Source: a virus. Taken from it: 64,000 nucleotides of DNA. Position 1 is the stretch's first letter, and every line of letters starts with the position of its first letter. The DNA lies in the IMG/VR virus record IMGVR_UViG_3300031718_000003, positions 1 to 64,000 of that record; one strand, written 5' to 3'. The position numbers and the translations under genes are program-made. Under the pieces are notes generated by a model. That model had not been told where the DNA came from. It saw only the letters and a list, made by a program, of their open reading frames with translations, and did not search any database. Shown here piece after piece: positions 21,050-62,888 of the stretch.

Positions 21050-22480
21050 TCACGTCATCCAGCTCCGATCCCCGCCTGGCACATGGACAGCCGACGGCCT
21101 CGGCTGCGGCTTCGATGTCAAAGTTTTCAGACCCGTGGTGGACAGGACGTACCGGACGCAATCCATCAAATGGTCGTTTTTCTTCACGATCTTGCCCTTC
21201 TCGTCCCGATGATAGCGCGAGATCTCGCGGCGAAAGTTCTGAAGATGCTCCTGAACCTTCAACCTCCCCGATACCAGCCGCTCCCACACGATTTGAATGC
21301 CGGTCTCGACAGCGTTCTCACAGGGATGGAGCATCAGACCGGCCTTGCGGTAATGCTCCATCAGAGAACGGCCATCCACCTGCGAGCTTTGGAGGCAGCC
21401 GGGATCGACTACGCCATGTATCCACTCGCCCCTGGCGCGGATCGCCATCGCGTGGGAAGCTGGCTCGCCGGCGCTTTGATAGTGTTCGTCGTAGAGGACC
21501 AACTGCCCGTTGCCGGGATTCTCGGCCGCCCACAAGGCCGCCGTGAGCCGCCAGCCCACATCGAGTGCATAGACGCGCCGCCAGGAGGCGGGAATGGGCG
21601 CGGTCTTGATCAGGAAGTCCTCTTCCGGCAGGGGATAGATGGCGCCCGCGCCGAGCGACGGCTCGCCGAGTGTCCGCGCTTTGATCTGGTAGGCGGGAGT
21701 CGTGGCAATCAGGATGTCCTTCTCCGCCTGCTCCATGTGCGGAACGTCCTTCCAACCGGCCTGTATCCAGAATTTGTGCGCCGCGGCGCCTTCCTTCGGC
21801 TCCAGAAATCCGGTTACAACCTCACTCATGCCCTGGAGCGGCGTGAAAGTGGTGTAGAGAATCCCGCGGGTTGTGACGGTGCGAAACAGGATCTCGGTAT
21901 AGATGTCCTCCGGAGGCTCTTCGTCGAGCCATGCGAAGTCCAGTGAGACTCCCTCGAAGCTCTTCCGGCCCTGCTCGTAGGTCTTCAGCCCAACGCTCGA
22001 CCAGGCGCCAGAGACGTGCTTTACCCAGATCGTCTCGATCGATCCGCTGAGACCTGAGCGGCGCGGAAGCGTCTTCACGATCCGGTCCGCCGGGATCATG
22101 CCAGTGCCCTGCGCTTCGAGTGTGCCTGCGAGTTTGAACTGCACGATATTGCGAGTGCTCTCCGAGGTCGTGCCGCACGCCCAGCCCGCGGTAGGTCCAC
22201 TGAAGCGCTTCCCCGTCCACCACACCGGATAATTTCCAGTTAGATGACAGGCGGTCTCGTACGCGCCCGCATCTGACTTCCCGATGCGATTCGCGGCGCA
22301 GAATAATCTTTCCTTGTACGTCGCGCCGGCGGCGAAGAATTCGAGCTGCTTCGGATAAAGCGCGCGCCGGCGCGGCCCCGTCTCCGGGAAATATCCCCGC
22401 CACTTGTTGCGCTTCTGGAAGTCCAGGGCCGCCTGAATGGTGCCCAGATCGACCATGTCCGGTAAGCTGACAACGGTCAC
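21050..22480 (-). CDS. terL: terminase large subunit (P22 gp2-like)
   Basis: Walker A AANRIGKS, Walker B AWLDEEPP, TFTPLQG, nuclease LDVGW...NDHLMDCVRY. Confidence 0.93.
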   Translation of the reverse strand: MTVVSLPDMVDLGTIQAALDFQKRNKWRGYFPETGPRRRALYPKQLEFFAAGATYKERLFCAANRIGKSDAGAYETACHLTGNYPVWWTGKRFSGPTAGWACGTTSESTRNIVQFKLAGTLEAQGTGMIPADRIVKTLPRRSGLSGSIETIWVKHVSGAWSSVGLKTYEQGRKSFEGVSLDFAWLDEEPPEDIYTEILFRTVTTRGILYTTFTPLQGMSEVVTGFLEPKEGAAAHKFWIQAGWKDVPHMEQAEKDILIATTPAYQIKARTLGEPSLGAGAIYPLPEEDFLIKTAPIPASWRRVYALDVGWRLTAALWAAENPGNGQLVLYDEHYQSAGEPASHAMAIRARGEWIHGVVDPGCLQSSQVDGRSLMEHYRKAGLMLHPCENAVETGIQIVWERLVSGRLKVQEHLQNFRREISRYHRDEKGKIVKKNDHLMDCVRYVLSTTGLKTLTSKPQPRPSAVHVPGGDRSWMT

Positions 22481-22902
22481 TAGCCTCCCGAGTCCGCAAT
22501 CGCCTCGCGAATCTGTTGCGCCGCGAGGCCGGGCCACTGCGCTTCCGGCATCCGCACGTACGTCCATGCGTCGAGGCCGGCAATGCGCCACTGCCCGCGC
22601 GGCGTCTGGTAGAAATATTGCTCCGCGTTTGCCGAGTAGGGTCCCGTTCCATAGGGATTTTCAGCCTTGATCTGCCCGTTCCCGAACGTTTCAGCCATAT
22701 ACTGGGCCGTCGCCTCGGTCGCAAAATACATGGGATTCAGGCCCGTCGATTGCCCCGTCTGTGAATTGGTTACCGCCGGCACGATGAACGTAGGGACAAA
22801 CGGAGGCGCAACCGGAGCCGCGCCCGGCGTGGGAGCAGGCGAGGGCGCAGGTCCGGAGATCTCAAATGGTCCCCAGGTGGGGGGCGGCGTGGAATTACTC
22901 AC
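22480..22902 (-). CDS. hypothetical Pro-rich protein between terS and terL
   Basis: RBS AAGGA; stop abuts terL start. Confidence 0.55.
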   Translation of the reverse strand: MSNSTPPPTWGPFEISGPAPSPAPTPGAAPVAPPFVPTFIVPAVTNSQTGQSTGLNPMYFATEATAQYMAETFGNGQIKAENPYGTGPYSANAEQYFYQTPRGQWRIAGLDAWTYVRMPEAQWPGLAAQQIREAIADSGG

Positions 22903-22982: not shown

Positions 22983-23167
22983 ACTCGAGGTGCAGTTTTC
23001 CCTTGCATTTCCACTGATTCCCATTTAGACTGTAAAGCGTTGATAGAGCGCAGTTTATGTGAAAATATTTCATTGAACACTTATCGCCCCCCGATAAGTG
23101 TTCCGTTCGATTTCCCAATGTTTTGGCACTTTGTCGATTTGCGCTCGGCTGGGCATAGAAAAACAGG
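22983..23167 (+). repeat. 185-bp direct duplication of the rep-internal segment 40777-40961
   Basis: About 6 mismatches by eye; contains TTGCAT-17-TAGACT and CACTTATCG-N5-CGATAAGTG. Confidence 0.92.
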
Positions 23168-23185
23168 AAATCAGCGTTGTCTTTA

Positions 23186-23222
23186 GTTGCAATATCCAGC
23201 TCACGGAAGAAGGTAGTGAGAC
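23186..23222 (+). CRISPR. solitary CRISPR repeat 1
   Basis: GTTGCAATATCCAGCTCACGGAAGAAGGTAGTGAGAC, one mismatch to array repeat 9 (61960-61996). Confidence 0.93.
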
Positions 23223-23804
23223 TCAGCTTCTGCTTTGCGCTCTCATCAGTTTCTGCTTTGCGCCCTCAAGCTCCTCTGCTGTAAATAGCTCCGCGAGCGC
23301 CGTAACGGCTACTGGGATCGCTTGGCCGCCTGGTCCGCTCAGTTCTTTGCGATCCACCCAGTCGCCCATCTCGTGCGCCACCTGTTCCTCGTGGAGGCGC
23401 ATCTCGCGCAGTATCCCGGTATCGACGAGGAACTCTTCTACGACTTGGCTCTCATCGCCCGCGCCGATCGACTTCAGTTGGCAGATAACCAGCCCGGTGC
23501 TGCCGCCTGGCGCTTTGCCGGCCAGCTTCGCGGCACGCTCACGGACGACCTGGTCCATGAGTGCGAGCCGCCGGTTCAGCCGCGCGAGGCGAACTTCCTT
23601 GACCGCAGCGCCGGACTCCTTCACGCGCTTGCGCCATTCCCCGACCCAGTGGTCCACCTCGCGGGCGAACTCCGGGGTGGCCTTCCAGCGTTGGATCTGC
23701 CGCGCGCTCACTCCGAGCCGCTTGCCGATTTCATCGTTCGTCAGGCCGCCGAGCGACACCATGCGCGCGGCTTTGTAACGCGTTTTATCCCAGGCCCAGT
23801 CCAC
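23223..23804 (-). CDS. terS: terminase small subunit (N-terminal HTH)
   Basis: LTNDEIGKRLGVSARQIQRWK.TPEF; C-terminal ELSGPGGQAI; upstream of terL. Confidence 0.8.
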   Translation of the reverse strand: MDWAWDKTRYKAARMVSLGGLTNDEIGKRLGVSARQIQRWKATPEFAREVDHWVGEWRKRVKESGAAVKEVRLARLNRRLALMDQVVRERAAKLAGKAPGGSTGLVICQLKSIGAGDESQVVEEFLVDTGILREMRLHEEQVAHEMGDWVDRKELSGPGGQAIPVAVTALAELFTAEELEGAKQKLMRAQSRS

Positions 23805-23806
23805 GA

Positions 23807-24013
23807 GTTAGCGCACCCGGGGCACAGACCCCATCGAGCCACTGAAGATGCCGAAGACACTCAGCAGCCACAGCACGACGCAGATGATAACCACGACGTT
23901 CAGGAAGTTCTTGATGGGCGGGGCCATCGGAATTAGGGCGCATGTCATTCAAGGTCATCCCACAAAAGCAGCACTATGACGACCAGGGTGATGATGAGAC
24001 TGATAATCGGCAT
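23807..24013 (-). pseudogene. disrupted two-TM small membrane protein (Thivi_2564-like)
   Basis: MPIISLIITLVVIVLLLW and IPMAPPIKNFLNVVVIICVVLWLLSVFG lie in different frames, with stops near 23935-23950. Confidence 0.55.
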
Positions 24014-24060
24014 GGCTTTTTTGTTCCTTTTTCAGACATTCCCATTTAGACTGTAAAGCG

Positions 24061-24097
24061 GTTGCAATATCCAGCTCACGGAAGAAGGTAGTGAGAC
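24061..24097 (+). CRISPR. solitary CRISPR repeat 2
   Basis: Identical to 23186-23222; preceded by ATTCCCATTTAGACTGTAAAGCG. Confidence 0.93.
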
Positions 24098-24100
24098 TTT

Positions 24101-24499
24101 TCAGACCTTGGCAGTTTCCGCCGGCAGCATGGGAAGTATGATCGGCGCCGTATCTCCCGGGCTCAAAGCAACGAGTTTGGCCATTCCCTGTCGCAGCAAT
24201 TCCATGCGAATCGTTTCCATCAGCACCATCTGATGTGTCGCGGCTTGGCGGGCGAGCTCGGCAACCTCCTTGGCGGACGTCACCGCTGTTGCGTTGACAA
24301 CGGTCGCGGCTTCGAGACGGTTCATTTGGTCCTTCAGGCTCGAGCCGGTATCCGTTTTGAATTCCATCGCCATCGCGAGAAGCACGGGATGCAGCCTGGC
24401 GACCACGCCGAGAAAACTAATCAGCTTCCAGAGCGCGGCAAAAATAGCGATTGTGCTTACAGCGCAGCCAGCGACCGCGGCTAAGGTTACCCAGTTCAT
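24101..24499 (-). CDS. hypothetical membrane protein, possibly lysis-associated
   Basis: N-terminal TM then GSSLKDQMNRLE motif; strong RBS. Confidence 0.55.
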   Translation of the reverse strand: MNWVTLAAVAGCAVSTIAIFAALWKLISFLGVVARLHPVLLAMAMEFKTDTGSSLKDQMNRLEAATVVNATAVTSAKEVAELARQAATHQMVLMETIRMELLRQGMAKLVALSPGDTAPIILPMLPAETAKV

Positions 24500-27910: not shown

Positions 27911-28555
27911 ATGCCATCCAAAACCAAAAACATTGACCAAAACAGCCCTATTTCAGCCCCAGTCGAACAGAATTGTCAAACTGTACGCCTCAGACGCCGA
28001 AGTTCGCCGGAACCGCCGAAACACCTCTCTCCTACGCAGCTCGAGGATCTGTTCCGCGTGATCTACTCGAAACGCGACGAGGCCATCTTTCGCATCGTCT
28101 ATTGCAAAGCCCTGCGCGCGAGCGAAGTCGGCCGCCTGGAACTCAGTGACTGGGATGAACGCGAGAAGATGCTGAGCGTACATCGACTAAAAGGATCTCG
28201 CTCGGCGGCCTTCGCGATGCACGACAAGGAGCTGCGCGCGCTGCGCGCCTGGCTAAAGGTCCGCGGCCGAGCGCCGGGCCCGCTGTTTCCCAGCCGCAAC
28301 CATCGCCCAATCTCGCGCATTCGCATCTGGGAACTGATGCGGCAGTACTGCAAAGAAGCTGGCATCCCCATGCGTCTCGCACATCCGCACGCGCTCAAGC
28401 ACTCCCGCGGCTCACACTTACTCGAGGAGACGGGCAAGATCCACGTGGTGCAGGACGCGTTAGGACACAAAAGTATCGCGTCTACGATGATCTACGCGCA
28501 AGTTTCCAACCGCGATCGGACGGAGGCCATAGCGCTCAATCGCAATAAATACTGA
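27911..28555 (+). CDS. tyrosine recombinase, catalytic-domain only (FimB/FimE-like size)
   Basis: LRASE, RLKGS, HPHALKHS, LGHKSIASTMIY. Confidence 0.88.
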   Translation: MPSKTKNIDQNSPISAPVEQNCQTVRLRRRSSPEPPKHLSPTQLEDLFRVIYSKRDEAIFRIVYCKALRASEVGRLELSDWDEREKMLSVHRLKGSRSAAFAMHDKELRALRAWLKVRGRAPGPLFPSRNHRPISRIRIWELMRQYCKEAGIPMRLAHPHALKHSRGSHLLEETGKIHVVQDALGHKSIASTMIYAQVSNRDRTEAIALNRNKY

Positions 28556-40236: not shown

Positions 40237-41434
40237 GGGGTTCCTTTCTCATTTGCCGCGCGTAGAGAATCTGCATCGCTTCCTGGTTTTTACCCGCTGC
40301 CCTTCCGCCGCGCGGATCCGGCGGAATTGACTCCCATTGCCGGTTATCGATCATGTCGCTCAGGGTGGGTTTGCAGAATTGCCAGCCTTTTATATCCCAG
40401 TACACGGCCCATGCAGCGATGCCGGATTCAATGTCATCGAGACGCACGCCGAGTCTGACCGCATCGCGAATCATCGTCTGGCAGGTATCGCGGCTGGCCC
40501 GGCGTCCAGCGCCGGTTTTTTTCCAAGAACGAAAGAGCTTGTCGAAGCGTGTCCGAAATTCCGGGTCGGAGAGTGTAGGCCGAGGGGGGGGGAATTCGCC
40601 GCCCCCCGCTTGCGGGGGGTAGGGGGGTTTCTCCTTAGTAGTTACAGTAGTCACATCCTTATATGTAGTTATCGGGGGGAGAAAGTGTTCGAGGGTCTTT
40701 TCGATAAGTGATGCGACCCCGGCTTCGATCTCTTTTTCGATAAGTGATCGCTTATCGATTTCGATAAGTGATGGTAACTCGAGATGTAGTTTTCCCTTGC
40801 ATTTCCATTGATCCCCGTTTAGACTGTAAAGCGTTGATAGAGCGCAGTTTATGTGAAAATATTTCATTGAACACTTATCGCCCCCCGATAAGTGTTCCGT
40901 TCGATTTCCCAATGTTTTGGCACTTTTTCGATTTGCGCTCGGCTGGGCATAGAAAAACAGGCGTGTAGGAGAGCCGGGGCCACCTCTCGATCCACGGCGA
41001 ATCTCACCGTCTTCGGCCATCGCCGTCAGCTCTGCGGACACGTTCGGCAATAGAATCCCCGTGTCTCTCGCGGCGTCCTGTGGCCCGGCGGGGACTTTCG
41101 CCAACTTGCCTTGCCGGTTGACGAGTTTCATGGCTGTCCGGCCGTGAAAGCGCGGCACGCCGGCCTTTGTGATGGAGTGCTGAATACTTCCGATGCCAAC
41201 CGTGGCCAGAGTGAACCAGGCGCGTAACCGCTCCCGCCGGGAGCATAGGGGACTGCGCATGATGTATTCCGCCCGGCGGCGGATGTCCTGAAAATAGCGT
41301 CCGGCGTCAAGCCCTAGATCTTTCGCGAGCACTTCATCGCGAGCGAGCCCCAGGCGCCGTAGCCAACTGGGATGGTCGGGCCCTTCTTTACCGACGGGTT
41401 TTCTTGCCTGGCGTTCCGCGGCGGAACCGAGCAT
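40229..41434 (-). CDS. phage replication initiator with internal origin
   Basis: wHTH-like N-terminus, KPPYPP linker, C-terminal F...W.../K....WE domain; internal iterons. Confidence 0.65.
   Translation of the reverse strand: MLGSAAERQARKPVGKEGPDHPSWLRRLGLARDEVLAKDLGLDAGRYFQDIRRRAEYIMRSPLCSRRERLRAWFTLATVGIGSIQHSITKAGVPRFHGRTAMKLVNRQGKLAKVPAGPQDAARDTGILLPNVSAELTAMAEDGEIRRGSRGGPGSPTRLFFYAQPSANRKSAKTLGNRTEHLSGGDKCSMKYFHINCALSTLYSLNGDQWKCKGKLHLELPSLIEIDKRSLIEKEIEAGVASLIEKTLEHFLPPITTYKDVTTVTTKEKPPYPPQAGGGEFPPPRPTLSDPEFRTRFDKLFRSWKKTGAGRRASRDTCQTMIRDAVRLGVRLDDIESGIAAWAVYWDIKGWQFCKPTLSDMIDNRQWESIPPDPRGGRAAGKNQEAMQILYARQMRKEPRG
40698..40893. repeat. iteron cluster / putative origin
   Basis: TTTCGATAAGTGAT x3 (40698-40772), palindrome CACTTATCG-N5-CGATAAGTG, AT-rich patch. 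Confidence 0.7.
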
Positions 41435-53059: not shown

Positions 53060-53898
53060 CCCACGAACCCAAATGCCGTATCTGTTCGTGCACCGAGGAT
53101 CACGCCTGCGCCGGTGGGTGCTCCTGGGTGCATACGCCGCTCGATCGGAAGTTAGGGCCGATCTGCAGCACGTGCATCGGATTGATGGAGAAGTTGGCGG
53201 TGTTCACCGAGGATAGCCGGAACGGGAATCTGGCCGCTGTGATCCGGGCGTACAAGGAAGTGACGGCGCGGGCGCGGGCGCGGACAGACCAGGAAAGGCG
53301 GGAGGATAAACGGCATGAATCACGTTTACGAAGTGAAGTTCGAGACACGGTACACGGGATGGGGATGGCTGGAGGATAGTGCCCGCGTTCTCGCAAATGG
53401 AAGCGCCACGAAGGCCGTTGAGATGGTTCGGCGGCACGAGATGAAAGAGTCTTTTGAGGACTTCACCAAGGGCCACAAGCGCGTTATTCGCCGCGCCATT
53501 GGTTTTAGGATGACGGGCGTCCAACAGTTGACCCATGTCGACTACTAACGGAAGTGACGCGCGAGGAGATCGCGACATTCGAGCGCGAGCTACGAAAGGC
53601 CGGCGCATGACGAAGGCAAAAAGGCAGTCACCTCTTATCAGTTTGGCACGCGCGGCACGAAATAATCCGGGCGCGGCCTTGCAATTGGCTGCGATCAAAT
53701 ACCTGAAGGCCAAGGGCTGGAATGTGATTTTGATTGGTGAGATCGAGATTCAGACCTGGGACGCCGGAGATGCAGCCAAAGGGAAACACAAGCTGGCCGT
53801 CGGTTTCCAAGGTATCGGCGCTCAATCCTCTAGGCGCAAACGGCGGATCGGTGAGGGCAGCATCCGACCGACCCCGAAGCCATGAAGGAGACGAAATA

Positions 53899-54618
53899 AT
53901 GTTCTTTCAGCGATTGCTCACTTTGGCGCTGCTGGCAACAGCAGCAAATGCGGATTCCTTGAGTTGGACCCTTGGCACAGTACTACCTGCCGGGGAGTAC
54001 CGGCTCGAGCCGTTTTCCGACCCGGCTGGTGTTTCCGTGGCAACAGCCGTAAACGGCGACGGCATCATAGTTGGGGATGTAAGTCCTTTATGGGGTGGGC
54101 CGCCTGTCTATGGCGTAATATGGGCGCCTACCGAGGACTTTCAGGGGGATGTGTACCCTGAATTTGTGTTTCCCCCCTATGCAGACGGAGACTCGGGCAC
54201 GCAAGCGCTGGATATTACCGATAGCGGGCTCGTTCTATTCTCGTACGACCTGTCCAATTCAGGGCGGCCTGGAGGGTACGATATCTATGACATGAACACG
54301 GGCACGTGGTCCCTGCCCGGAGATAGCCCCGCAGACCTCGGCTGGGACCACACGCCGAGCCTCACCAATGACAAGGGCTGGAAAATTGAGTACGGGACGA
54401 TTTATGACCTACCGGAAGTAGGCCACCCGGTTATCGGCGATCAAGCGTTTCTTGTCGAGACGCCGGAGCCAGGAGGATTGTGGTTGATACTGCCGCTAGC
54501 TATGCTCCTTGTCGTTGCGCTTAACCGTTCTTCCGTGAAGGGTCGCGCACCAAGCGAAGAGGAGATTGCCGCCAACAAAGCGGCTGAGGAAGAGTGGAAT
54601 CAGATGGGAGGCATTTGA
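53899..54618 (+). CDS. secreted protein with PEP-CTERM-like sorting signal
   Basis: Signal peptide ...AANADS; TPEPGGLWL + TM; RBS AAGGAG. Confidence 0.6.
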   Translation: MFFQRLLTLALLATAANADSLSWTLGTVLPAGEYRLEPFSDPAGVSVATAVNGDGIIVGDVSPLWGGPPVYGVIWAPTEDFQGDVYPEFVFPPYADGDSGTQALDITDSGLVLFSYDLSNSGRPGGYDIYDMNTGTWSLPGDSPADLGWDHTPSLTNDKGWKIEYGTIYDLPEVGHPVIGDQAFLVETPEPGGLWLILPLAMLLVVALNRSSVKGRAPSEEEIAANKAAEEEWNQMGGI

Positions 54619-54669
54619 CCCTGATGACGGTGGACGAGGATTCAGAGGGGAATTATATAGATAATTCCC

Positions 54670-56469
54670 GTGACTGACCTAATGCTAAAGATCTCAGACG
54701 ATCTCTCTTTGCCAAGAAATGCTGTAACCGAAAAACTGGCATGGATCGGAAGGACTGGTTCTGGGAAAACCTATGGAGCCACGAAAGCGGCTGAGCAGAT
54801 GCTCGCTGCTGACGCTCAAGTCGTTACTCTCGATCCTGTTGGAGTGTGGTACGGATTGCGTCTGGCTGCGGATGGTAAATCTCCAGGGCTGACATTGCCA
54901 GTATTCGGCGGCCTCCATGGAGACATTCCGCTTGAGCCCGGAGTTGGTGCGATGATGGCCGATTTAATCGTAGATCGTGGTCTATCTGCTGTTCTGGATG
55001 TGAGCCAGTTTGAACACGACACCGAGAAGGCGCGATTCGCCGGCGACTTCGCTAGCCGCTTCTTCTTCAGGAAAAAGGCGCGGCCATCTGCCGTTCATAT
55101 CTTCATTGAGGAAGCGCAGGAATTTTGCCCGGAAGAGCCGCGACGAGGAGAAGAGAACATGGTGCATGCGTTCACCCGCATGTGGAAACTCGGGCGTAAC
55201 TTTGGCATTGGCGGCTCCCTAATTACGCAGAGGCCGCAGGAAGTTAGTAAGAAGGTGCTGAACCTGGCGGAATGTGTTTTTGCTTTTCAGTTAACGGGTC
55301 CCCATGAGCGTAAGGCACTAGAAAAGTGGATAGCGGAAAGAGGCATCGACGAGGATATCGGGGCGATTCTGCCGAAACTCACGGTCGGGCAAGTTCGCGT
55401 CTGGAGCCCTGCATGGCTAAAGATATCGAAGACGATACAGATTTTACCCAAATCTACGTTCGACGCATCGAGCACTCCGGGAGTCGGCAAGCGTGCGGCC
55501 GTACGAGAACTCGCACCGATCGATCTTGAAAGATTGCGCGTCGATATGGCCGCGACCATCGAAAAAGCCAAGGCTGAAGACCCGCGTGAGCTGCAACGCC
55601 AGGTCCGCGAGCTGAAAGCGAAGATCGCGCAGATGGATAAGGCCGCACCGGTTACGAAAGGCGGCGCGCCGGCAGACGCGGAACAGTTAAAGCGCGAATT
55701 CGACCGTGGGGCGAATTCAGTGAAGGGCCTCCTGGCTAAGGAGCTGCGCGCCTGCTCGAAGACCGCTGCAGCCATCCAGCCCGCAACGCTTGCCGCACTG
55801 CGCGACATGGCGGCAGCGGCGGCACGGGCCATAACACATGTCGAGCAAGTCCAGATGCCATCCATGCCGAGCCTCGAAGGTGTCATCGAGCAAGCGAAGG
55901 CAACACGCTCGCCAGCGGTTCTCCCGGTGCGCACAAAAGTTCCCGTGGAGCGCACGAAAATGGCCGCCGCGAACGGAGAGGCATCCAAAATCGGCAATAC
56001 CGGTCTTCGGCGCATGCTGATCGCTCTCGCGCAGCGCCGTAACGGGATCTCCACCAAGCAGCTTGGGGTGCGAGCGGGGATCTCTAGTAAAAGCGGAACC
56101 TTCGGGACATACCTCGGGCGTGGAAGGGCCAATGGCTGGATCGCGGGAGAACGCGGGCAGTTGAAAATAACCGAGGCGGGAGTTGCGGCGCTGGGAAATT
56201 ACGAGCCGCTTCCGGAGGGTAGGGAACTGCTGGAATATTGGCTGAACGAATTAGGGGATAGCGGGGCCGGGCGCATGCTTAGCGCGCTCGCTGAACGCTA
56301 CCCGCAGGGTTTTACGGCGGAGGAGCTGGGGAAACAAGCGGATATCAGTTCTGCGAGTGGCACGTTTGGGACGTACCTGGGGAGATTGCGGTCGTTGGAG
56401 CTGATTAGTGGGTCGAGGAGTGAGTTGAAAGCTAGTGATGAGTTTTGCCTATGGCTTCGGGGTCGGTAG
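54670..56469 (+). CDS. HerA/DUF87-like P-loop ATPase with two C-terminal wHTH-like repeats
   Basis: GRTGSGKT, IFIEEAQEF, GRNFGIG..LITQRP; duplicated SGTFGTYLGR. Confidence 0.8.
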   Translation: MTDLMLKISDDLSLPRNAVTEKLAWIGRTGSGKTYGATKAAEQMLAADAQVVTLDPVGVWYGLRLAADGKSPGLTLPVFGGLHGDIPLEPGVGAMMADLIVDRGLSAVLDVSQFEHDTEKARFAGDFASRFFFRKKARPSAVHIFIEEAQEFCPEEPRRGEENMVHAFTRMWKLGRNFGIGGSLITQRPQEVSKKVLNLAECVFAFQLTGPHERKALEKWIAERGIDEDIGAILPKLTVGQVRVWSPAWLKISKTIQILPKSTFDASSTPGVGKRAAVRELAPIDLERLRVDMAATIEKAKAEDPRELQRQVRELKAKIAQMDKAAPVTKGGAPADAEQLKREFDRGANSVKGLLAKELRACSKTAAAIQPATLAALRDMAAAAARAITHVEQVQMPSMPSLEGVIEQAKATRSPAVLPVRTKVPVERTKMAAANGEASKIGNTGLRRMLIALAQRRNGISTKQLGVRAGISSKSGTFGTYLGRGRANGWIAGERGQLKITEAGVAALGNYEPLPEGRELLEYWLNELGDSGAGRMLSALAERYPQGFTAEELGKQADISSASGTFGTYLGRLRSLELISGSRSELKASDEFCLWLRGR

Positions 56470-56552: not shown

Positions 56553-58289
56553 ATGGCCGTGGAAACGAAAACTTATATCGCTTATACTTACGGCTGCCCC
56601 CAGCCCAATCACCAGGTATTTAATTATGCCTTGGCCGAGATGCGCCGCCGCAACGATCTCTGGAACAAACTAGTCGAAATAGATCGCCGATTTCGCCTAG
56701 CTTCCTGGAATATCTATGCGGATGTCCCCGAACAGAAAATCGCCGATGAGTTGGCGGGCGTGATCAGGGCGTGGCGCGAAGAACTCAAGGGCCGCCGGCA
56801 AAAGGCGCGCCGCCGCGTGGATGCCACGGATCTCGTGGAAAAGATCAAAACTGCGAAGATGGAATTACGAGTCGCCTCTAAAACCGCTAGAATTGCCCGC
56901 CGTGCGGCCATCGAACGAAACCGGGCGGCGCTGAAGACCCTGGACGAATTACGCCGGTCCGAAGTCAATAAGGCGTGTCTTGCGAGCAATCTCTACTGGT
57001 GTAACTGGGATGAAGTGCTCGCAAAATACGAAGTAGCGCGAGTTCGCGCCATGAAGGCCGGGGTACTGCTACGTTTTCATGCATGGAGCGGCGTTGGAAA
57101 ACTCACTGTGCGGTTCCAAAAAGGGCTCGCTTCCGATCTGGTGTTTGGTGGGGATACGAGATTGCAAATCGATCCCGTCAACAGTGACGCCTGGAATTCC
57201 CCGGCGCGCAGTGTCCGCGGAAAAAGTATGTATACAAAAATTCGTATACGCATGGGATCACACAATCGCAAACCTGTATGGTTCGAAGCGCCCATGGCGA
57301 TGCACCGCCCGTTGCCGGAGAGAAGCGTGATCCGCACCGCCGCGATCGCCTCCGAGCAGATCGGAGGCGTTTTGCGCTGGCACGTCATCCTAACGCTTGA
57401 ACTGCCATCTGCGCGTCAGGCGAGGATCGGTCCGGCGGTAGGTGTAGATATCGGATGGCGCTTACTGCCTGGAAGGCTGCGGGTCGCATACTGGGTCGAT
57501 GAATATGGCGGCAAAGGCGAAATCGCGCTCTCCGACTCCATTGTCTCGCAATTCGCAAAAGTACGGGATCTTGATGCAATCTTGGGAAATCATTTCGAAC
57601 TCGCAAAGGTAAAACTTGGTGCGTGGCGCGCGGGGTATTTCGAACCGCTGCCGGAATGGCTCAATCTCACCCGTATGGATCAGTGGAGAGATCAGCGCCG
57701 GTTCTATGAGCTTTGGACACTCTGGAAGGATTCCCGATTTGCTGGCGACACTTATGGATTCGATACCGTATCCGAGTTTGCCGAGCGCTACGCTCATTTG
57801 CGGAACTGGCGCGAGAACTTACAGGATCAGGTCATCGCCCGCAGGAAGGACACGTACCGGAAAGCCGTATGCGATCTGCTCCGGAACCACGGGGACGTGT
57901 TTCTTGAGAAATTCGATCTTCGCAACATCGCTGAAACACCGGACCCGGAGACGAGTCCCACAGTAGTAGTAATGGATTCGGCTCGCCGCCGCGTGATTGC
58001 CGCGCCTGCGAGTTTGCGTGAGATGCTGGTCCATAAGGGCCAGTGGATGGAGGTTCCAGCACCGGGGACCACGCAGGAATGCGCCTGGTGCGGTTATGCC
58101 GCTGCCTGGGATGCGGCCCCAAGCATACTGCATCGTTGTGGAGGATGCGGAAAGCTCTGGGATCAGGATGAGAATGCAGCAGTCAACATCCTGCGGCGTG
58201 GTTTAGCGCAGATTGGGAGGGATTGGAAGCCGGAATTCGATCCGCGAAAAGCGGACGGGATGGAAGTGGCCGAAACCGTTGCGGGTTAA
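56553..58289 (+). CDS. cas12m: type V CRISPR effector, Cas12m (V-U1)-like
   Basis: 578 aa; LYWCNW...LRFHAWSGVGKLTVRFQ and MHRPLP resemble Cas12m; RuvC VGVDIGWR / VFLEKFD / WDQDENAAVNI; Zn finger; array begins 14 bp downstream. Confidence 0.8.
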   Translation: MAVETKTYIAYTYGCPQPNHQVFNYALAEMRRRNDLWNKLVEIDRRFRLASWNIYADVPEQKIADELAGVIRAWREELKGRRQKARRRVDATDLVEKIKTAKMELRVASKTARIARRAAIERNRAALKTLDELRRSEVNKACLASNLYWCNWDEVLAKYEVARVRAMKAGVLLRFHAWSGVGKLTVRFQKGLASDLVFGGDTRLQIDPVNSDAWNSPARSVRGKSMYTKIRIRMGSHNRKPVWFEAPMAMHRPLPERSVIRTAAIASEQIGGVLRWHVILTLELPSARQARIGPAVGVDIGWRLLPGRLRVAYWVDEYGGKGEIALSDSIVSQFAKVRDLDAILGNHFELAKVKLGAWRAGYFEPLPEWLNLTRMDQWRDQRRFYELWTLWKDSRFAGDTYGFDTVSEFAERYAHLRNWRENLQDQVIARRKDTYRKAVCDLLRNHGDVFLEKFDLRNIAETPDPETSPTVVVMDSARRRVIAAPASLREMLVHKGQWMEVPAPGTTQECAWCGYAAAWDAAPSILHRCGGCGKLWDQDENAAVNILRRGLAQIGRDWKPEFDPRKADGMEVAETVAG

Positions 58290-58647
58290 CGATTTGCGGA
58301 GCCGTTGCAATACCCAGCTCACGGGCGAAGGAAGTGAGACAATCAGTCCGGTTGGTCCCGATTCAGTCCCGATTCAGGGTTGCAATACCCAGCTCACGGG
58401 CGAAGGAAGTGAGACGATAGACACGGCAGCATCGAAAACGACACTAAATATGTTGCAATACCCAGCTCACGGGCGAAGGGGTAGTGGGGTCTTTTGAATT
58501 TCCACCGTCTTGATTTTCAGTCATGCTGGAATTGTGATTCCTCCGGCGTTTCCTCACTTGCTGCCTCGCTTTCCCGGCGTCCCGTGGCGCTATCCGCGAC
58601 CGCTCCCGCAGGTATATCCTTGGAAGGCTCCAAGGAGAGCAAGAGCC

Positions 58648-59451
58648 ATGACGATAGCGGTCGGGGTCCTGGCAGGTGATGGGGTGGTGTTAGCAGCGGA
58701 CACGGAGTACACGTGGGGCTATCTCAAAACGAGCGGAGAAAAGATATGGACCGCTGAAGGCCACGGAGCCTTGGCCATTGCGGGCGCTGGCAATGGTGCG
58801 TACTTGTCCGCAATCGCTCAGCAGATGATTGATGCGTTTAAAGCTGCGCCGAAGACGATCTCCGTCGAGCGCCTTTACGAGAAATTCTCAGAAATCCTGA
58901 CAGACTTTCATAGCAAGCATGTCATAAGGTTCGCGCATCTCGGCAGTTCGGTCGCTATTTCGCTGCTAGTCGCGCTCCAACGAGGCAAGGAGGCGTATCT
59001 TTGGGCAAGTGAAAACGATTCCCTGGAGAGATGCGGACCCTATGCGTCCATTGGTTTGGGCTGCGAATACGCCAATGCCCTTTTGGGTGAGATGTTCGCG
59101 GGTACGGCGGTGTCTTGGAAGGCGAGCGTTCCGTTGGCTGAACGCATCGCGGCCTATGCGGTGTTTGAGACGAAAAACAACGTACGGGAGTGCGGAAAAA
59201 AAACCTCTCTCGTCGCCATCCAGAAGGGGCACATTGTGGAAACGAGCGCACAGAAGATGCTGCTCATTAATTCGCACCTCAATGCGTTTTCTGAGATCCG
59301 GATCTTGGGGACGAAATATGCTCTTGGGTTCCCATACCCCGACGCGACAAGTGCGTCAGAAAAACTCATGGCCTACTTGGGCGGATTGCGGCAAGACGTG
59401 CTCGCGATTGAAGGCCAAACCTTCGAAGGAAAAGGGCGGAGTCTTGAATAA
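58648..59451 (+). CDS. proteasome beta-like Ntn-hydrolase passenger
   Basis: M-TIAVG...GVVLAADTE...KI...AGAG...YASIGLG; Thr1 after Met; RBS AAGGAG. Confidence 0.65.
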   Translation: MTIAVGVLAGDGVVLAADTEYTWGYLKTSGEKIWTAEGHGALAIAGAGNGAYLSAIAQQMIDAFKAAPKTISVERLYEKFSEILTDFHSKHVIRFAHLGSSVAISLLVALQRGKEAYLWASENDSLERCGPYASIGLGCEYANALLGEMFAGTAVSWKASVPLAERIAAYAVFETKNNVRECGKKTSLVAIQKGHIVETSAQKMLLINSHLNAFSEIRILGTKYALGFPYPDATSASEKLMAYLGGLRQDVLAIEGQTFEGKGRSLE

Positions 59452-59456
59452 CCTCT

Positions 59457-60305
59457 CTAGGCGACACGGCTCAGTTCTCTCGTCTCGGACAACGCGACGA
59501 TCTCTTCGAACGACCACACATGATCCGCGATCCCGGCTGCCATTGCTGGCGTAACTCGTAGCGTCTGATGGATGCGCGCGAAGTTGTAATACATGTAGTG
59601 GAGGGCCACGGCTGCCTCGTGGTTCTCGATCTTCTTTGAAAAGCCGTTCGTCAACCGAGTGAAGCGGCGCATGGACATCCGCATTGTGAGATTCTGGCGT
59701 TCCACATAGCTCGTGCTGATATGCCTTGGTTCGGGATCGCCGAGTCGGATGATCTTCTCGGCGCCGGTGCAAACCGCAGGGCTGTACCGCTTTTGCGGCT
59801 CGGGTTCGTTGCCGAAGTATTTCACGAGCTGCGCGTAATCCACTTCGTCGGCGAAAGCATCAATCACGGCGTTGAGGTAAACTTTGTGGCCGTCCGTGGT
59901 AAGTTGGACACGATGGGCGAGTTTGCGTTCCAGAGCGGCGATGAATTCCGTGGCGCTGCCAGCTCCCCTATCGCCCACGAGCCAGCATGGAACAAGCTTG
60001 GTATCCGCGTCGATTGCGACCCAGACCCAAGCGTCGCCTACGACGCGCTCTTCGGCCATCTTCGTGGTGACGTTCTTCTGCTTGCAGCCGATATAGCTCC
60101 AGATCTCGTCACATTGAATACGTCGGCATTTCAGGTTGCGGAAGACGCGGTCCTGATAGCGGTAGCAGGCGATCCCGACCTCAACGAGGAGACGCGTCAC
60201 CGGGCGCTTCTCGTGGCCCGTCATGCGGCAGATGGAACGGATGGAATTTCCTTCGACGAGTGCGGCAATGATTCGGGCGCGTTCTCCGATGCTCAGCCTG
60301 TTCAT
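59457..60305 (-). CDS. IS1-family transposase
   Basis: HTH GNSIRSI.R, IQCDEIWSYIG.K, TTDG...Y, STSYVERQNLTMRMSMRRFTRLTNGFSKK. Confidence 0.93.
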   Translation of the reverse strand: MNRLSIGERARIIAALVEGNSIRSICRMTGHEKRPVTRLLVEVGIACYRYQDRVFRNLKCRRIQCDEIWSYIGCKQKNVTTKMAEERVVGDAWVWVAIDADTKLVPCWLVGDRGAGSATEFIAALERKLAHRVQLTTDGHKVYLNAVIDAFADEVDYAQLVKYFGNEPEPQKRYSPAVCTGAEKIIRLGDPEPRHISTSYVERQNLTMRMSMRRFTRLTNGFSKKIENHEAAVALHYMYYNFARIHQTLRVTPAMAAGIADHVWSFEEIVALSETRELSRVA

Positions 60306-60346
60306 AGGTCTATTATGCGCTAGCGCTCGCGCATAGTCAAGGGGAA

Positions 60347-60820
60347 ATGACGATGGCTAACTGGATAGATGAGTTATGCGAGGAGATTCTCCGGGATGGC
60401 CGCCACAAAAGCGTGGCGGAGGAATTGCGATTACACCGCGCCGGGGTACTGGAGCAGGAGGGCCGGTTTTTCTTTGAAGAGCTGAGGCGAGAGGTTAAAG
60501 ACGGGCTGCCGACCATAGGCACGCGCCTGGGCCTATCCCCAGCGGACCTCCGATTCGAGGGAAAGGACGATTTCTTCCAGATAACAAACCATTCTCACTA
60601 CCCAGTGGTCACCGTCAAGGCCGAATACATGCTGAAGCGGGTTTTGCTCAATATCAAGAGGAAGCAGGCTGATGTCCGCACTCCAGCGGAAGAGACGCGG
60701 GATTCTATCGATTTTTGTGTCAAGGCTGACGATGAGCTTTACTTCTGCCACAAAGGAACGACACTCCCGGGAATTGATGAGGCGGTAAAATTGGTATTCA
60801 GGCCGCTATTTTCCACCTGA
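60347..60820 (+). CDS. IS1 passenger, hypothetical
   Basis: Divergent from the transposase. Confidence 0.55.
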   Translation: MTMANWIDELCEEILRDGRHKSVAEELRLHRAGVLEQEGRFFFEELRREVKDGLPTIGTRLGLSPADLRFEGKDDFFQITNHSHYPVVTVKAEYMLKRVLLNIKRKQADVRTPAEETRDSIDFCVKADDELYFCHKGTTLPGIDEAVKLVFRPLFST

Positions 60821-60839
60821 TCCTTCAGTGCCCGTTAGC

Positions 60840-61229
60840 CTATTCGCCGGGCTGTTTGGCTGCTTGTAGCGCTTTGCGCCGGGCCGCCGCCGATACACTA
60901 TCGATCTCAGACTGAGGCGCGCCATTAGCTTTCAACGCAACGATCCGCAAGGCCTCCGGCACAGGAATCGCAAGATTCTCGGGTTCCTGATAGAACCGGT
61001 CTACGGCTTTTACTAGCTCAACCATGCTGAGCGGTTCTGGAATGTACGGGCGTGACGGAGAACGAGCTGCCCGTAACCCATCCAGAAAACCGACTAGGTA
61101 ATTCCCCTTGTCCATGAAAACCTGCCAGTGCCGCCCGTTGCACATGCCATTCGTAAAGGGCGGAATGGCTGGCTTTTCCTGAGCTACAGAGAGCAGAGTT
61201 AACGCAAGCAGAATCAAGGCAGGTTTCAT
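60840..61229 (-). CDS. IS1 passenger, secreted small protein
   Basis: Signal peptide; NG..W...YL.GF.DG...VDRFYQ.PEN..IP. Confidence 0.6.
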   Translation of the reverse strand: MKPALILLALTLLSVAQEKPAIPPFTNGMCNGRHWQVFMDKGNYLVGFLDGLRAARSPSRPYIPEPLSMVELVKAVDRFYQEPENLAIPVPEALRIVALKANGAPQSEIDSVSAAARRKALQAAKQPGE

Positions 61230-61486
61230 CGGGGATCTTTACCCGTTTTTCCCCACCGCGCCTGCGCAGCTCGCTTGGCCGAAGCCTTGCGCTGCGCTGG
61301 GCTGAGCCTTGCGTTCAAGGTGGCCGCGCCCTTTAGCCCGCCACGCCGCCCCATTTCGCGCATGATCTGAGAGACGGTGGAGCGGTCATCGAGATCTACG
61401 GGCAGTTCGGAGCCGGTGCTCTTAGCTACGATGGATGCAGCAAACTGATTGATGTCCTGCGATTTTGTCCGCGTGCGCTTGGGCAT
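61226..61486 (-). CDS. IS1 passenger, KGG-type basic protein
   Basis: DINQFA..IV...MGRRGGLKG...LSP.QR...AKRAAQARW; TTGACG-17-CATACT promoter inside the TIR end. Confidence 0.65.
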   Translation of the reverse strand: MPKRTRTKSQDINQFAASIVAKSTGSELPVDLDDRSTVSQIMREMGRRGGLKGAATLNARLSPAQRKASAKRAAQARWGKTGKDPR

Positions 61487-62888
61487 GACAGCTTCAAGTA
61501 TGGCAGGTTACGGGCCAACGTCAAGCCTGTGGAAATTCAAAAGACCCCACTACCGGCGAAGGAAGTGAGACTAGGAAGCTGTATCCGGCTCCCCGCGTTC
61601 ACATTCGTTGCAATACCCAGCTCACGGGCGAAGGAAGTGAGACCGATCAGTGCAAGGCGTACTCGCCGAATCACAAGGGGTTGCAATACCCAGCTCACGG
61701 GCGAAGGGAGTGAGACACGAAATCGGCAAGCGGCTCGGAGTGAGCGCGCGGCAGTTGCAATACCCAGCTCACGGGCAAAGGGAGTGAGACCTAAACGGCG
61801 TTCCAGTTCCGGCGGAATGCACTCCGTTGCAATACCCAGCTCACGGGCAAAGGGAGTGAGACGTGTCAAGGCGTGGCTGAAAGCAGTCAAGCTGCTCGCC
61901 AGTTGCAATACCCAGCTCACGGGCGAAGGAAGTGAGACAGCATCACGACCGTAAGGCCGGTTGCAATATCCAGCTCACGGAAGAAGGAAGTGAGACGCTC
62001 AATCTCATGTCGCTGTGACGCCCGGATAACTGTTGCAATACCCAGCTCACGGGCGAAGGGAGTGAGACAAGATTTAGAAACAGGTTTAACTGGAAGCAGG
62101 AAGGGTTGCAATACCCAGCTCACGGGCGAAGGAAGTGAGACAATATGGTGCTGCTTCGCTTTTCAGAAGTTGCAATATCCAGCTCACGGGAGAAGGGAGT
62201 GAGACGAGACGAAAGAATCGCAGCAACAGCGGGGGTGGGGGTATTGCAATACCCAGCTCACGGGCGAAGGAAGTGAGACTATTATGCCCCTCGGCATGTG
62301 TGAAAAGACCAACCGTAGTTGCAATACCCAGCTCACGGGCGAAGGGAGTGAGACCGTTAAAAGCATAGGCTAGGGGAAGACGGATTTTCGTTGCAATACC
62401 CAGCTCACGGGCGAAGGGAGTGAGACCGGAGCATATCCCGCTGAAGGTTCTTTGGAACGGAGTGTTGCAATACCCAGCTCACGGGAGAAGGGAGTGAGAC
62501 TCGGCAGATTTCCAGCGGGACCAAAGCCCGCAGAGCGGTTGCAATACCCAGCTCACGGGCGAAGGGAGTGAGACACATCTTGAGGGTTTCACGACAGAAG
62601 AGATGCCAACAGGTTGCAATACCCAGCTCACGGGCGAAGGAAGTGAGACAAACAAGTGCCCAGGTCAACAAAAATGTTTGGGGAGTTGCAATACCCAGCT
62701 CACGGGAGAAGGAAGTGAGACGTGGTCAACCGTTCCGAACGCAAACGGCGGACCGCTGAAGGCAGAGCCGGGCTGACCCAGGAAGAATTATGTGTGCGTT
62801 GCCAATTGGGGTCAAATGGGTCTTCATCCGGCCAGCGATCATACAAGAAAATGTCATCCTGTAAATTCACGGCATAGCTTGGCATAGT

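What the first reader, a model, noticed from the sequence alone, without database searches (positions are those of the whole stretch)
61717..61753. Array spacer matches the phage's own terS at 36/37 nt
Seen: spacer ACGAAATCGGCAAGCGGCTCGGAGTGAGCGCGCGGCA equals minus-strand 23698-23734 except at position 2 (GAC vs GAT, synonymous Asp). The 5' flank is GAACG, and the target is in the terS HTH, between the two solo repeats. Inference: either a weapon against a near-identical competitor phage, with self-protection by a seed mismatch, non-PAM flank or the IS1 insertion upstream in the array, or deliberate self-repression of packaging by a DNA-binding Cas12m.
Basis: partly seen in the sequence, partly recalled or inferred. 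Interest (0 to 1): 0.8.

Follow-up and report, generated by a model that had tools for sequence, protein, structure and literature searches.

The report
Phage Cas12m spacer matching own terS
A soil phage that carries its own non-cutting CRISPR protein (Cas12m) has one guide that copies 36 of 37 letters of its own DNA-packaging gene; it is probably disabled, and I found the same pattern in five other Cas12m phages.

Summary
Spacer 5 (61717-61753, +) equals the minus strand at 23698-23734 at 36/37, with C versus T at guide position 2 (GAC/GAT, both Asp24 of terS). The record is a 74.8-kb virus contig. It carries a 578-aa Cas12m (E 6e-110 to a solved Cas12m), an 18-spacer array with no Cas1, and a 3,075-bp IS1-like element inside repeat 3.

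The 5' flank (GAACG) is neither T- nor C-rich, unlike the PAMs published for Cas12m. In the one ortholog tested, a single PAM-proximal mismatch abolished activity. No copy of the perfect (GAC) target turned up. A 97%-identical sister contig and contigs from two soil runs all carry the phage's own GAT allele.

Among 27 whole Cas12m phage records with arrays, 6 hold a spacer matching their own genome, against 0 cross-genome matches. Four of the six have their mismatches at guide positions 1-4.

Best reading (0.5): a tolerated, disarmed spacer picked up from the phage itself or close kin, in an array filled in trans. Rivals are a kin-exclusion weapon (0.22), attenuated self-repression (0.12) and a captured host array (0.1). 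The scan had already noted single cases of this kind on other DNA; the recurrence and the seed-end clustering of mismatches are what I add. Two solitary repeats flanking terS remain unexplained.

The parts
61717..61753 (+). Spacer 5 of the array (5th from the cas12m-proximal end). The first 17-20 nt would form the guide.
   Evidence: The guide length of about 17-20 nt is taken from PmCas12m and Cas12m2 papers.
23698..23734 (-). Self protospacer in terS (codons 24-36), matching 36/37 with T instead of C at position 2. The crRNA would pair with the + strand, which is the template strand of terS.
23223..23804 (-). Putative terminase small subunit (193 aa) with an N-terminal HTH.
   Evidence: Pfam HTH_23 2e-7. 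PHROG 2538 and 7344 terminase small subunit. Lies upstream of TerL.
21050..22591 (-). Terminase large subunit.
   Evidence: Pfam Terminase_6N 2.3e-22.
56553..58289 (+). cas12m, 578 aa, intact. D299/E452/D539 and the CxxC...CxxC zinc finger are invariant among relatives.
   Evidence: PDB 23vw_A 'DNA-binding protein Cas12m' E 5.7e-110 over residues 4-548; 8hhl Cas12m2 2.4e-29. Pfam Cas12f1-like_TNB. Alignment A1.
58304..58479 (+). Array part 1: repeats 1 and 2, spacers 1 and 2, and the first 28 nt of repeat 3. It starts 14 bp after the cas12m stop codon.
58480..61554 (.). IS1-family element of 3,075 bp inserted in repeat 3. It has perfect 26-bp terminal inverted repeats and an 8-bp target duplication GGCGAAGG, and carries passenger ORFs.
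   Evidence: DDE_Tnp_IS1 2.4e-8 in the ORF 59457-60305 (-).
61555..62721 (+). Array part 2: the rest of repeat 3, then 16 repeats and spacers 3-18.
23186..23222 (+). Solitary repeat 1, ending at the base before the terS stop codon. It differs by 4 nt from the array consensus and by 1 nt from the array repeat at 61960.
   Evidence: It keeps the stem and the pseudoknot.
24061..24097 (+). Solitary repeat 2, identical to solitary repeat 1, 3 nt from the stop codon of ORF 24101-24499 (-).

Best explanation
Spacer 5 is a genuine spacer taken from this phage's own lineage, either from itself or from very close kin. It sits in a phage-borne type V-M (Cas12m) array that has no adaptation genes, so it must be filled in trans at its cas12m-proximal end.

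Cas12m orthologs bind DNA and block transcription rather than cut it. A self-matching spacer is therefore not instantly lethal. One that hits an essential gene such as terS can persist only if binding is disabled.

Three things argue that binding is disabled here:
- a mismatch at guide position 2, in the PAM-proximal seed;
- a 5' flank (GAACG) unlike the T- or C-rich PAMs known for the family;
- at present, an IS1-like insertion that separates the spacer from the cas12m-side transcription start.

The spacer therefore most likely does nothing to the phage's own terS today.

Shown: the match, the Cas12m identity, the absence of Cas1, the array polarity seen in a sister-phage group, the IS insertion, and the recurrence in other phages. 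Inferred: no cleavage, the PAM, the effect of the mismatch, the loss of transcription, and the origin of the spacer.
For: - The match is real and unique among the 18 spacers.
- The effector is a Cas12m. Published D-E-D, H-D-D and N-D-D Cas12m orthologs all bind dsDNA without cutting it, in a PAM-dependent way, with T- or C-rich PAMs (PMC11013384).
- In PmCas12m, single mismatches within 12 nt of the PAM abolish activity, and the guide is about 17 nt (bioRxiv 10.64898/2026.03.26.714355).
- No Cas1 was found in this record (91% complete), nor in the other Cas12m phage records I searched.
- In the G001/L096 group, sisters 98.5-99.6% identical differ by two extra spacers at the effector-proximal end. 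The newest of these matches G001's own integrase gene at 35/38, again with a mismatch at position 2. All sisters share the carrier's target allele.
- Survey of 27 whole phage records with arrays and 258 spacers: 6 self-matches with 3 or fewer mismatches in 6 genomes, against 0 cross-genome matches at that level. All 8 mismatches lie at positions 1, 2, 2, 2, 4 or within the last two bases, and none in between.
- Every other copy of the terS target carries the same GAT and the same flank.
- The IS has clean inverted repeats and a target duplication inside repeat 3. The scan found no + strand sigma-70-like promoter between the IS and spacer 5.
Against: - The PAM of this ortholog is unknown. It is only 45% identical to the nearest solved protein and about 25% to those with published PAMs.
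- Tolerance of a position-2 mismatch has been tested in only one ortholog, and in human cells.
- Two of the six self-matches in other phages are perfect, one next to a CCCC flank. Functional self-binding may therefore exist in the family.
- The target gene is also bracketed by two structurally intact solitary repeats. A purely accidental spacer does not explain this: the chance that a random self-match falls in that 838-bp cassette is about 1%.
- Three of the four mismatched self-spacers begin with AC, against 9 of 158 spacers overall. That hints at a mechanism I cannot name.
- The promoter scan covers sigma-70-type sites only.
Confidence: 0.5

Rival explanations
1. Kin-exclusion weapon. The spacer is active against close relatives whose terS carries GAC. 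Cas12m silences their terS-terL operon during co-infection or superinfection of a lysogen, and the carrier is spared by its single seed SNP.
For: - Virus-borne arrays are known to aim at related viruses, and V-M systems on mobile elements are linked to competition between elements (PMC11656645).
- The difference is a synonymous wobble base in an essential gene.
- Seed-end mismatches in 4 of 6 self-matches are what allele-specific discrimination would look like.
- The phage encodes an integrase-family recombinase, so it may be temperate.
Against: - No GAC allele was found anywhere. L081, X1 and X2 all carry GAT with the same non-T/C-rich flank.
- In G001, all four sisters carry the carrier's allele, and there the spacer variant would be non-synonymous (Arg to Thr).
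- The IS now uncouples the spacer from cas12m.
Confidence: 0.22
2. Attenuated self-regulation. Cas12m loaded with spacer-5 crRNA binds the phage's own terS weakly and throttles packaging-gene transcription, for example in lysogeny. The two solitary repeats might be part of the same circuit.
For: - Cas12m is a natural CRISPRi effector.
- The crRNA would pair with the template strand near the 5' end of terS.
- Self-matches recur in 6 of 27 phages, and two are perfect.
- The solitary repeats keep the stem and pseudoknot and flank the same gene.
Against: - The seed mismatch and the flank.
- The IS insertion.
- In sister contig L081, one solitary repeat has a stem-breaking change. The solitary repeats differ at 3 of 74 positions while terS differs at 1 of 582, so they are not visibly conserved.
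- The guides that would follow the solitary repeats have no second target in the genome.
Confidence: 0.12
3. Fossil of host or plasmid immunity. The cas12m and array module was captured from a cell or plasmid that had been immunised against this phage lineage, and the phage is an escape variant.
For: - There are no adaptation genes.
- V-M systems are plasmid-enriched.
- An earlier unchecked note says the module is bracketed by the genome's bipartite element.
- Spacers 10, 13 and 18 look AT-richer than the phage by eye (GC not computed).
Against: - In G001 a self-matching spacer was added while the array was already phage-borne.
- No bacterial genome of 185,579 species holds this repeat; there were only three single 20-mer hits without a full repeat.
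Confidence: 0.1

Closest known systems
Type V-M CRISPR-Cas12m (MmCas12m2, GoCas12m, PmCas12m; PDB 8hhl, 8pm4, 23vw)
   Same: - Effector homology over the full length.
- A 37-nt repeat with a 3' stem and pseudoknot, ending in GAC.
- The array lies directly downstream on the same strand.
- No adaptation genes.
- Carried on a mobile element.
   Different: - It is encoded by a phage of about 75 kb, and I found 58 IMG/VR viral contigs encoding such proteins.
- One spacer matches the carrier's own essential gene.
- Solitary repeats lie 35 kb from the array.
- The PAM, and binding without cutting, are untested for this ortholog.
Virus-borne CRISPR (mini-)arrays in interviral conflict (Saccharolobus portogloboviruses SPV1/SPV2, Medvedeva et al. 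2019, as summarised in PMC11656645)
   Same: A virus carries spacers derived from its own kind, and the carrier is spared.
   Different: - Those arrays borrow the host's effector and have a demonstrated related target.
- Here the phage brings its own effector.
- The only known targets, self and sister, carry the same mismatch.
Tolerated self-targeting spacers against resident prophages in bacteria (seed or PAM-adjacent mismatch, or an inactivated system)
   Same: A near-perfect self-match with the single mismatch beside the PAM side, and an IS disrupting the locus.
   Different: - The 'self' is the virus itself rather than a host chromosome.
- The effector is a DNA binder, so the cost is silencing rather than cleavage.
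Self-targeting regulatory CRISPRi (type IV-A in Pseudomonas oleovorans; CreR and scaRNA-type cr-like RNAs)
   Same: An RNA-guided DNA binder with a guide that matches the carrier's own gene.
   Different: Those guides have a valid PAM and either partial PAM-distal complementarity or a full match. Here the defect is in the seed and the flank.
Solitary repeat units / RNA anti-CRISPRs (Racr; Camara-Wilpert et al. 2023, as summarised in PMC11656645)
   Same: Single CRISPR repeats in a phage genome, away from any array.
   Different: They copy the phage's own array repeat rather than a known host repeat, and they exactly bracket the gene that the spacer matches.

Membership tests
Type V-M CRISPR-Cas (Cas12m) | Effector homologous to Cas12m over its full length, with RuvC and a zinc-finger TNB domain | tested here: met
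   23vw_A E 5.7e-110 (residues 4-548), 8hhl 2.4e-29, 8pm4 2.8e-26. PF07282. D299, E452, D539, C510, C513, C529 and C532 are invariant in 20 relatives.
Type V-M CRISPR-Cas (Cas12m) | Adjacent CRISPR array on the same strand; crRNA made of a repeat handle followed by the guide | tested here: met
   the array starts 14 bp after the stop codon; the same layout appears in most of 58 viral loci; the stem and pseudoknot show compensatory changes. Processing itself was not tested.
Type V-M CRISPR-Cas (Cas12m) | Binds PAM-flanked dsDNA without cleaving it | not testable with these tools
   Published for D-E-D, H-D-D and N-D-D orthologs (PMC11013384). This ortholog has D-E-D.
Type V-M CRISPR-Cas (Cas12m) | Usually lacks cas1/cas2 | tested here: met
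   no PF01867 match in the 74.8-kb record (91% complete). Cas2 and Cas4 were not searched.
Virus-borne arrays aimed at related viruses | A spacer has a fully matching, PAM-flanked protospacer in a related virus that is absent or mismatched in the carrier | tested here: not met
   the only relatives (L081, X1, X2) carry the carrier's allele and flank. The databases are sparse for this lineage; the best TerL relative is 63% identical.
Regulatory self-targeting CRISPRi | The guide matches the carrier's own gene next to a licensing PAM with an intact seed | tested here: inconclusive
   The seed is mismatched at position 2, and the flank GAACG is unlike the published T- or C-rich PAMs. The PAM of this ortholog is unknown.
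RNA anti-CRISPR solitary repeat units | A solitary repeat mimics the repeat of a host CRISPR system | tested here: not met
   no full copy of the repeat in one genome for each of 185,579 species. The repeat matches the phage's own array.
IS1 family insertion sequence | DDE IS1-type transposase, terminal inverted repeats starting GGT, and an 8-9 bp target duplication | tested here: met
   PF03400 2.4e-8; 26-bp perfect inverted repeats and an 8-bp duplication. It is atypically long (3,075 bp, with passenger ORFs).

The most novel reading that the evidence does not exclude
Mismatches at guide positions 1-2 would set the binding strength, so that the phage uses its own CRISPRi to time or restrain packaging and integration. 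The solitary repeats flanking terS would be part of that circuit. This would be a virus regulating its own life cycle by RNA-guided DNA binding.
Probability: 0.1. Interest if true: 0.9.

Novelty: new variant of a known kind. Interest (0 to 1): 0.6.

Why it matters
Cas12m is a natural DNA binder that does not cut. On a phage, this changes what a self-matching spacer costs: silencing rather than suicide.

About one in five of the phage Cas12m arrays I surveyed holds a near-perfect copy of the phage's own DNA. The few mismatches sit at the PAM-proximal end. That gives a natural data set on three questions: how these arrays are filled without Cas1, which seed positions matter in vivo, and whether phages ever use CRISPRi on themselves.

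It also corrects a recent claim that phage-encoded Cas12m is a single first case, since I found 58 IMG/VR contigs encoding such proteins. Finally, it points to a compact D-E-D Cas12m clade with testable native targets.

Tried and rejected
Tools and blanks
- No RNA holder was listed for the terS region, so I can say nothing about expression.
- Read laying could be used once, and I spent it on terS.
- A search for a paper on PDB 23vw/23vu ('Cas12m4a') found nothing.
- No structure or complex prediction was run.

Searches for relatives and targets that found nothing useful
- terS protein in IMG/VR: no relative.
- Protospacer core and repeat core in IMG/VR: 0 hits.
- INPHARED phages with the terS-terL region and with the whole array: nothing useful.
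- 80 TerL-related loci (63% aa identity or less): no spacer or repeat hits.
- Repeat 20-mer in genome contigs: three single hits without a full repeat, about the number expected by chance.
- IMG/VR scans for relatives of the G011 and G017 targets returned only the carriers themselves.

Readings I rejected
- L082 and L083 share 24 nt with spacer 5. They are unrelated bacterial genes with an EIGKRLGVS motif, so I rejected them as targets.
- The guides that would follow the solitary repeats have no second site in the genome.
- An apparent similarity between spacer 8 plus its variant repeat and the flank of solitary repeat 2 is not above shuffled controls.
- Asp codon usage (GAT 134, GAC 142) gives no hint which allele is ancestral.

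Technical failures
- My first fuzzy-regex survey timed out; I redid it with BLAST.

Full report
**What is there**

The 37-nt spacer at 61717-61753 (+) recurs once, on the minus strand at 23698-23734, with one mismatch. None of 100 shuffles gave two matches. The mismatch is at spacer position 2 (C in the spacer, T in the target). It is the wobble base of Asp24 of the 193-aa ORF 23223-23804 (-). That ORF has an N-terminal HTH_23 (residues 7-42) and matches PHROG terminase small subunit families. It lies upstream of a Terminase_6N large subunit (21050-22591). The flank 5' of the protospacer, on the strand identical to the spacer, is ...CTGACGAACG.

**The genome**

The window is the first 64 kb of a single 74,759-bp virus record. 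CheckV rates it 91% complete, and it has no terminal repeat. It carries one tRNA-Asn and an integrase-family recombinase at 28025-28507. Three soil metagenome runs hold part or all of the terS region.

**The CRISPR system**

- ORF 56553-58289 (+, 578 aa) matches a solved 'CRISPR-associated DNA-binding protein Cas12m' (23vw_A) at E 5.7e-110 over residues 4-548. It also matches Cas12m2 (8hhl) at 2.4e-29.
- D299, E452 and D539, and a CxxC...CxxC zinc finger, are invariant among 20 relatives.
- A D-E-D triad does not imply cutting. Published Cas12m orthologs with D-E-D, H-D-D and N-D-D triads all bind dsDNA in a PAM-dependent way without cleaving it. Their PAMs are T- or C-rich (PMC11013384; PMC10442227).
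- The array begins 14 bp after the stop codon, on the same strand, with 37-nt repeats ending in GAGAC.
- A 5-bp stem (columns 15-19 with 31-35) and a 3-bp pseudoknot (10-12 with 20-22) are kept through compensatory changes: C10-G22 to U10-A22, and C19-G31 to G19-C31 in two related phages.
- Repeat 3 is split by a 3,075-bp IS1-family element (58480-61554). It has perfect 26-bp inverted repeats, an 8-bp target duplication GGCGAAGG and a DDE_Tnp_IS1 transposase.
- The array thus had 19 repeats and 18 spacers. Spacer 5 is the second one after the IS.
- The record has no Cas1.
- A simple scan finds sigma-70-like sites on the + strand only in front of cas12m. It finds none between the IS and the rest of the array, and it finds a terminator-like hairpin inside the IS. 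This is weak evidence that spacers 3-18 are now poorly transcribed.

**Is the self-match likely to act?**

Three things argue against it.

1. In Cas12 effectors the guide follows the repeat handle, and its first bases pair next to the PAM. Mature Cas12m guides are about 17-20 nt. In PmCas12m, single mismatches within 12 nt of the PAM abolished activity.
2. The flank GAACG is neither T- nor C-rich.
3. The IS uncouples the spacer from cas12m.

None of these was measured for this ortholog, which is 45% identical to the nearest solved protein.

**Is there a competitor with the perfect target?**

I found none.

- The protospacer core is absent from IMG/VR.
- In the JGI metagenome contigs it occurs in three records. 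Two are unrelated bacterial genes that share 24 nt through an EIGKRLGVS motif.
- The third, L081 (1,168 bp), is 97% identical to 23109-24287. It carries the same GAT, the same flank and both solitary repeats.
- Logan contigs of runs X1 and X2 cover the site with no difference. Contigs drop rare variants, so this is not proof of absence.
- The lineage is poorly sampled: the best TerL relative in IMG/VR is 63% identical, and nothing matches in INPHARED.

**The wider pattern**

A profile of Cas12m relatives found 58 IMG/VR viral contigs encoding such proteins. Most have an array directly downstream on the same strand, with repeats of the same build. A 2026 preprint calls its case the first phage Cas12m, and a 2024 review mentions 'some prophages'.

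I fetched 32 of these records whole. With the window's own record that makes 33 records and 3.08 Mb. I compared every spacer with every genome:

- Arrays were detected in 27 genomes, giving 258 spacers of 28 nt or more.
- Six genomes hold a spacer that matches their own DNA outside the array with 3 or fewer mismatches.
- No spacer matches any other genome at that level.

| Genome | Target | Match | Mismatch positions |
|---|---|---|---|
| This phage | terS | 36/37 | 2 |
| G001 | integrase | 35/38 | 2, 37, 38 |
| G011 | 559-aa ORF | 34/35 | 1 |
| G017 | not identified | 33/36 | 2, 4, 35 |
| G010 | 134-aa ORF | 36/36 | none |
| G019 | not identified (flank CCCC) | 36/36 | none |

- All eight mismatches lie at guide positions 1-4 or in the last two bases. 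None lies in the roughly 30 positions between.
- The self-matching spacers rank 1, 1, 5, 5, 5 and 5 from the effector side.
- No Cas1 was found in any of the Cas12m phage records I searched.

**The G001 group**

This group is the most informative. Five sister phages are 98.5-99.6% identical and share their spacers. G001 has two extra spacers at the effector-proximal end. This shows where new spacers enter, and that the array grew while it was phage-borne. The newest spacer matches G001's own integrase gene (PF00589). All four sisters carry the same target allele as G001. The mismatch is therefore on the spacer side, and the spacer cannot tell G001 from its known kin. There the spacer variant would be non-synonymous (Arg to Thr).

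**Reading**

The simplest account is as follows. Arrays on Cas12m phages are filled in trans, and the phage's own or kin DNA is a frequent donor. Because the effector does not cut, such spacers survive long enough to be seen. Those that hit important genes persist only when the seed end is defective. Spacer 5 fits this account. I give it about 0.5.

| Reading | Confidence |
|---|---|
| Tolerated, disarmed self- or kin-derived spacer | 0.5 |
| Kin-exclusion weapon | 0.22 |
| Attenuated self-repression | 0.12 |
| Array captured from an immunised host or plasmid | 0.1 |

- Kin exclusion remains possible because sampling is thin and the SNP is synonymous. The available relatives speak against it.
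- Attenuated self-repression is kept alive by the two perfect self-matches elsewhere and by the solitary repeats.
- Capture from an immunised host or plasmid is possible, but it is not what happened in G001.

**What stays unexplained**

1. Two identical solitary repeats on the + strand abut the stop codons of terS and of the gene upstream (23186-23222 and 24061-24097). They bracket exactly the cassette that holds the protospacer. They keep the crRNA stem and pseudoknot, and only the 37 bp is duplicated. Their flanks show no similarity to each other by eye and none to array units beyond shuffled controls. The guides that would follow them have no second target. Between the window and L081 they differ at 3 of 74 positions, one of which breaks the stem. 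By contrast, terS differs at 1 of 582 and the flanks at about 4%. They are therefore not visibly conserved, and the terS block looks recently exchanged or swept.
2. Three of the four mismatched self-spacers begin with AC, against 9 of 158 spacers overall.
3. The PAM-distal mismatches sit at the very end of the spacers. This suggests ragged ends at acquisition rather than selection.

**Relation to earlier notes of this scan**

Single cases of a phage Cas12m spacer matching the phage's own gene had been noted on other DNA. The solitary repeats of this genome had also been noted. What I add is the cross-genome count, the control, the polarity seen in sister phages and the mismatch map.

Noticed in passing
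window 23186-23222 and 24061-24097 (+); L081:78-114 and L081:942-978: Two identical solitary CRISPR repeats bracket an 838-bp cassette (terS plus a small hydrophobic ORF). Each abuts a stop codon of a minus-strand gene. Only the 37 bp is duplicated. They are present, slightly mutated, in a 97%-identical sister contig.
   Followed up: partly
window 23223-23905 versus L081: The terS block differs at 1 of 582 positions between the window and L081, while the flanks and the solitary repeats differ at about 4%. The low-divergence block starts at the end of solitary repeat 1, which suggests a recent exchange or sweep of the terS allele.
   Followed up: partly
window 58480-61554: An IS1-family element of 3,075 bp, far longer than a classical IS1. 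It carries passenger ORFs: 313 aa with a weak proteasome-like hit, plus 157, 129 and 86 aa of unknown function. It is inserted with an 8-bp duplication inside a CRISPR repeat.
   Followed up: partly
L087-L144 (IMG/VR): 58 viral contigs encode Cas12m-like proteins, most with a downstream array, and several are complete genomes with terminal repeats. This contradicts a 2026 preprint's claim of a first phage Cas12m.
   Followed up: partly
G001 (L096/L150), G010 (L131:943-978), G011 (L177:15319-15353), G017 (L119 about 13016), G019 (L206 about 3023): Five other Cas12m phages carry a spacer matching their own genome. Two matches are perfect; three have mismatches at guide positions 1-4 and at the far end.
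   Followed up: yes
L105 18368; L113 and L114 5285; L131 18312; L091 3802, 13691, 14655, 14705: Degenerate solitary repeats (3-6 mismatches) lie kilobases away from the array in other Cas12m phage contigs. Their neighbourhoods were not examined.
   Followed up: no
L082:2308-2331, L083:2280-2303: Soil bacterial genes share 24 identical nt with spacer 5 (positions 3-26) through an EIGKRLGVS peptide motif. I judged this a coincidence of motif and codon bias.
   Followed up: yes
window 23223-23268: A 23-nt tandem duplication (21/23 identical) lies at the 3' end of terS, immediately after solitary repeat 1.
   Followed up: no
window 23109-23167 and 40903-40961: The first 59 nt of L081 match both of these places in the genome. 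This is probably a copy of the genome-wide bipartite element that other first-stage notes describe.
   Followed up: no
window 53734-56469: A 294-aa ORF with no family match and a 599-aa ORF with weak HerA/AAA_10/Zot-like P-loop hits lie directly upstream of cas12m on the same strand. They may form a defence or accessory island.
   Followed up: no
window 61939-61996: Spacer 8 is only 21 nt long. It is followed by the one array repeat that carries the solitary-repeat signature (U10, A22, A23). This may be a trace of a deletion or recombination, but no flank homology exceeded the shuffled controls.
   Followed up: partly
G017 (L119 11707-12096 and 17947-18549): One phage carries two arrays with variant repeats on opposite strands flanking the self-target region. 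The self-matching spacer is in the distal array.
   Followed up: no
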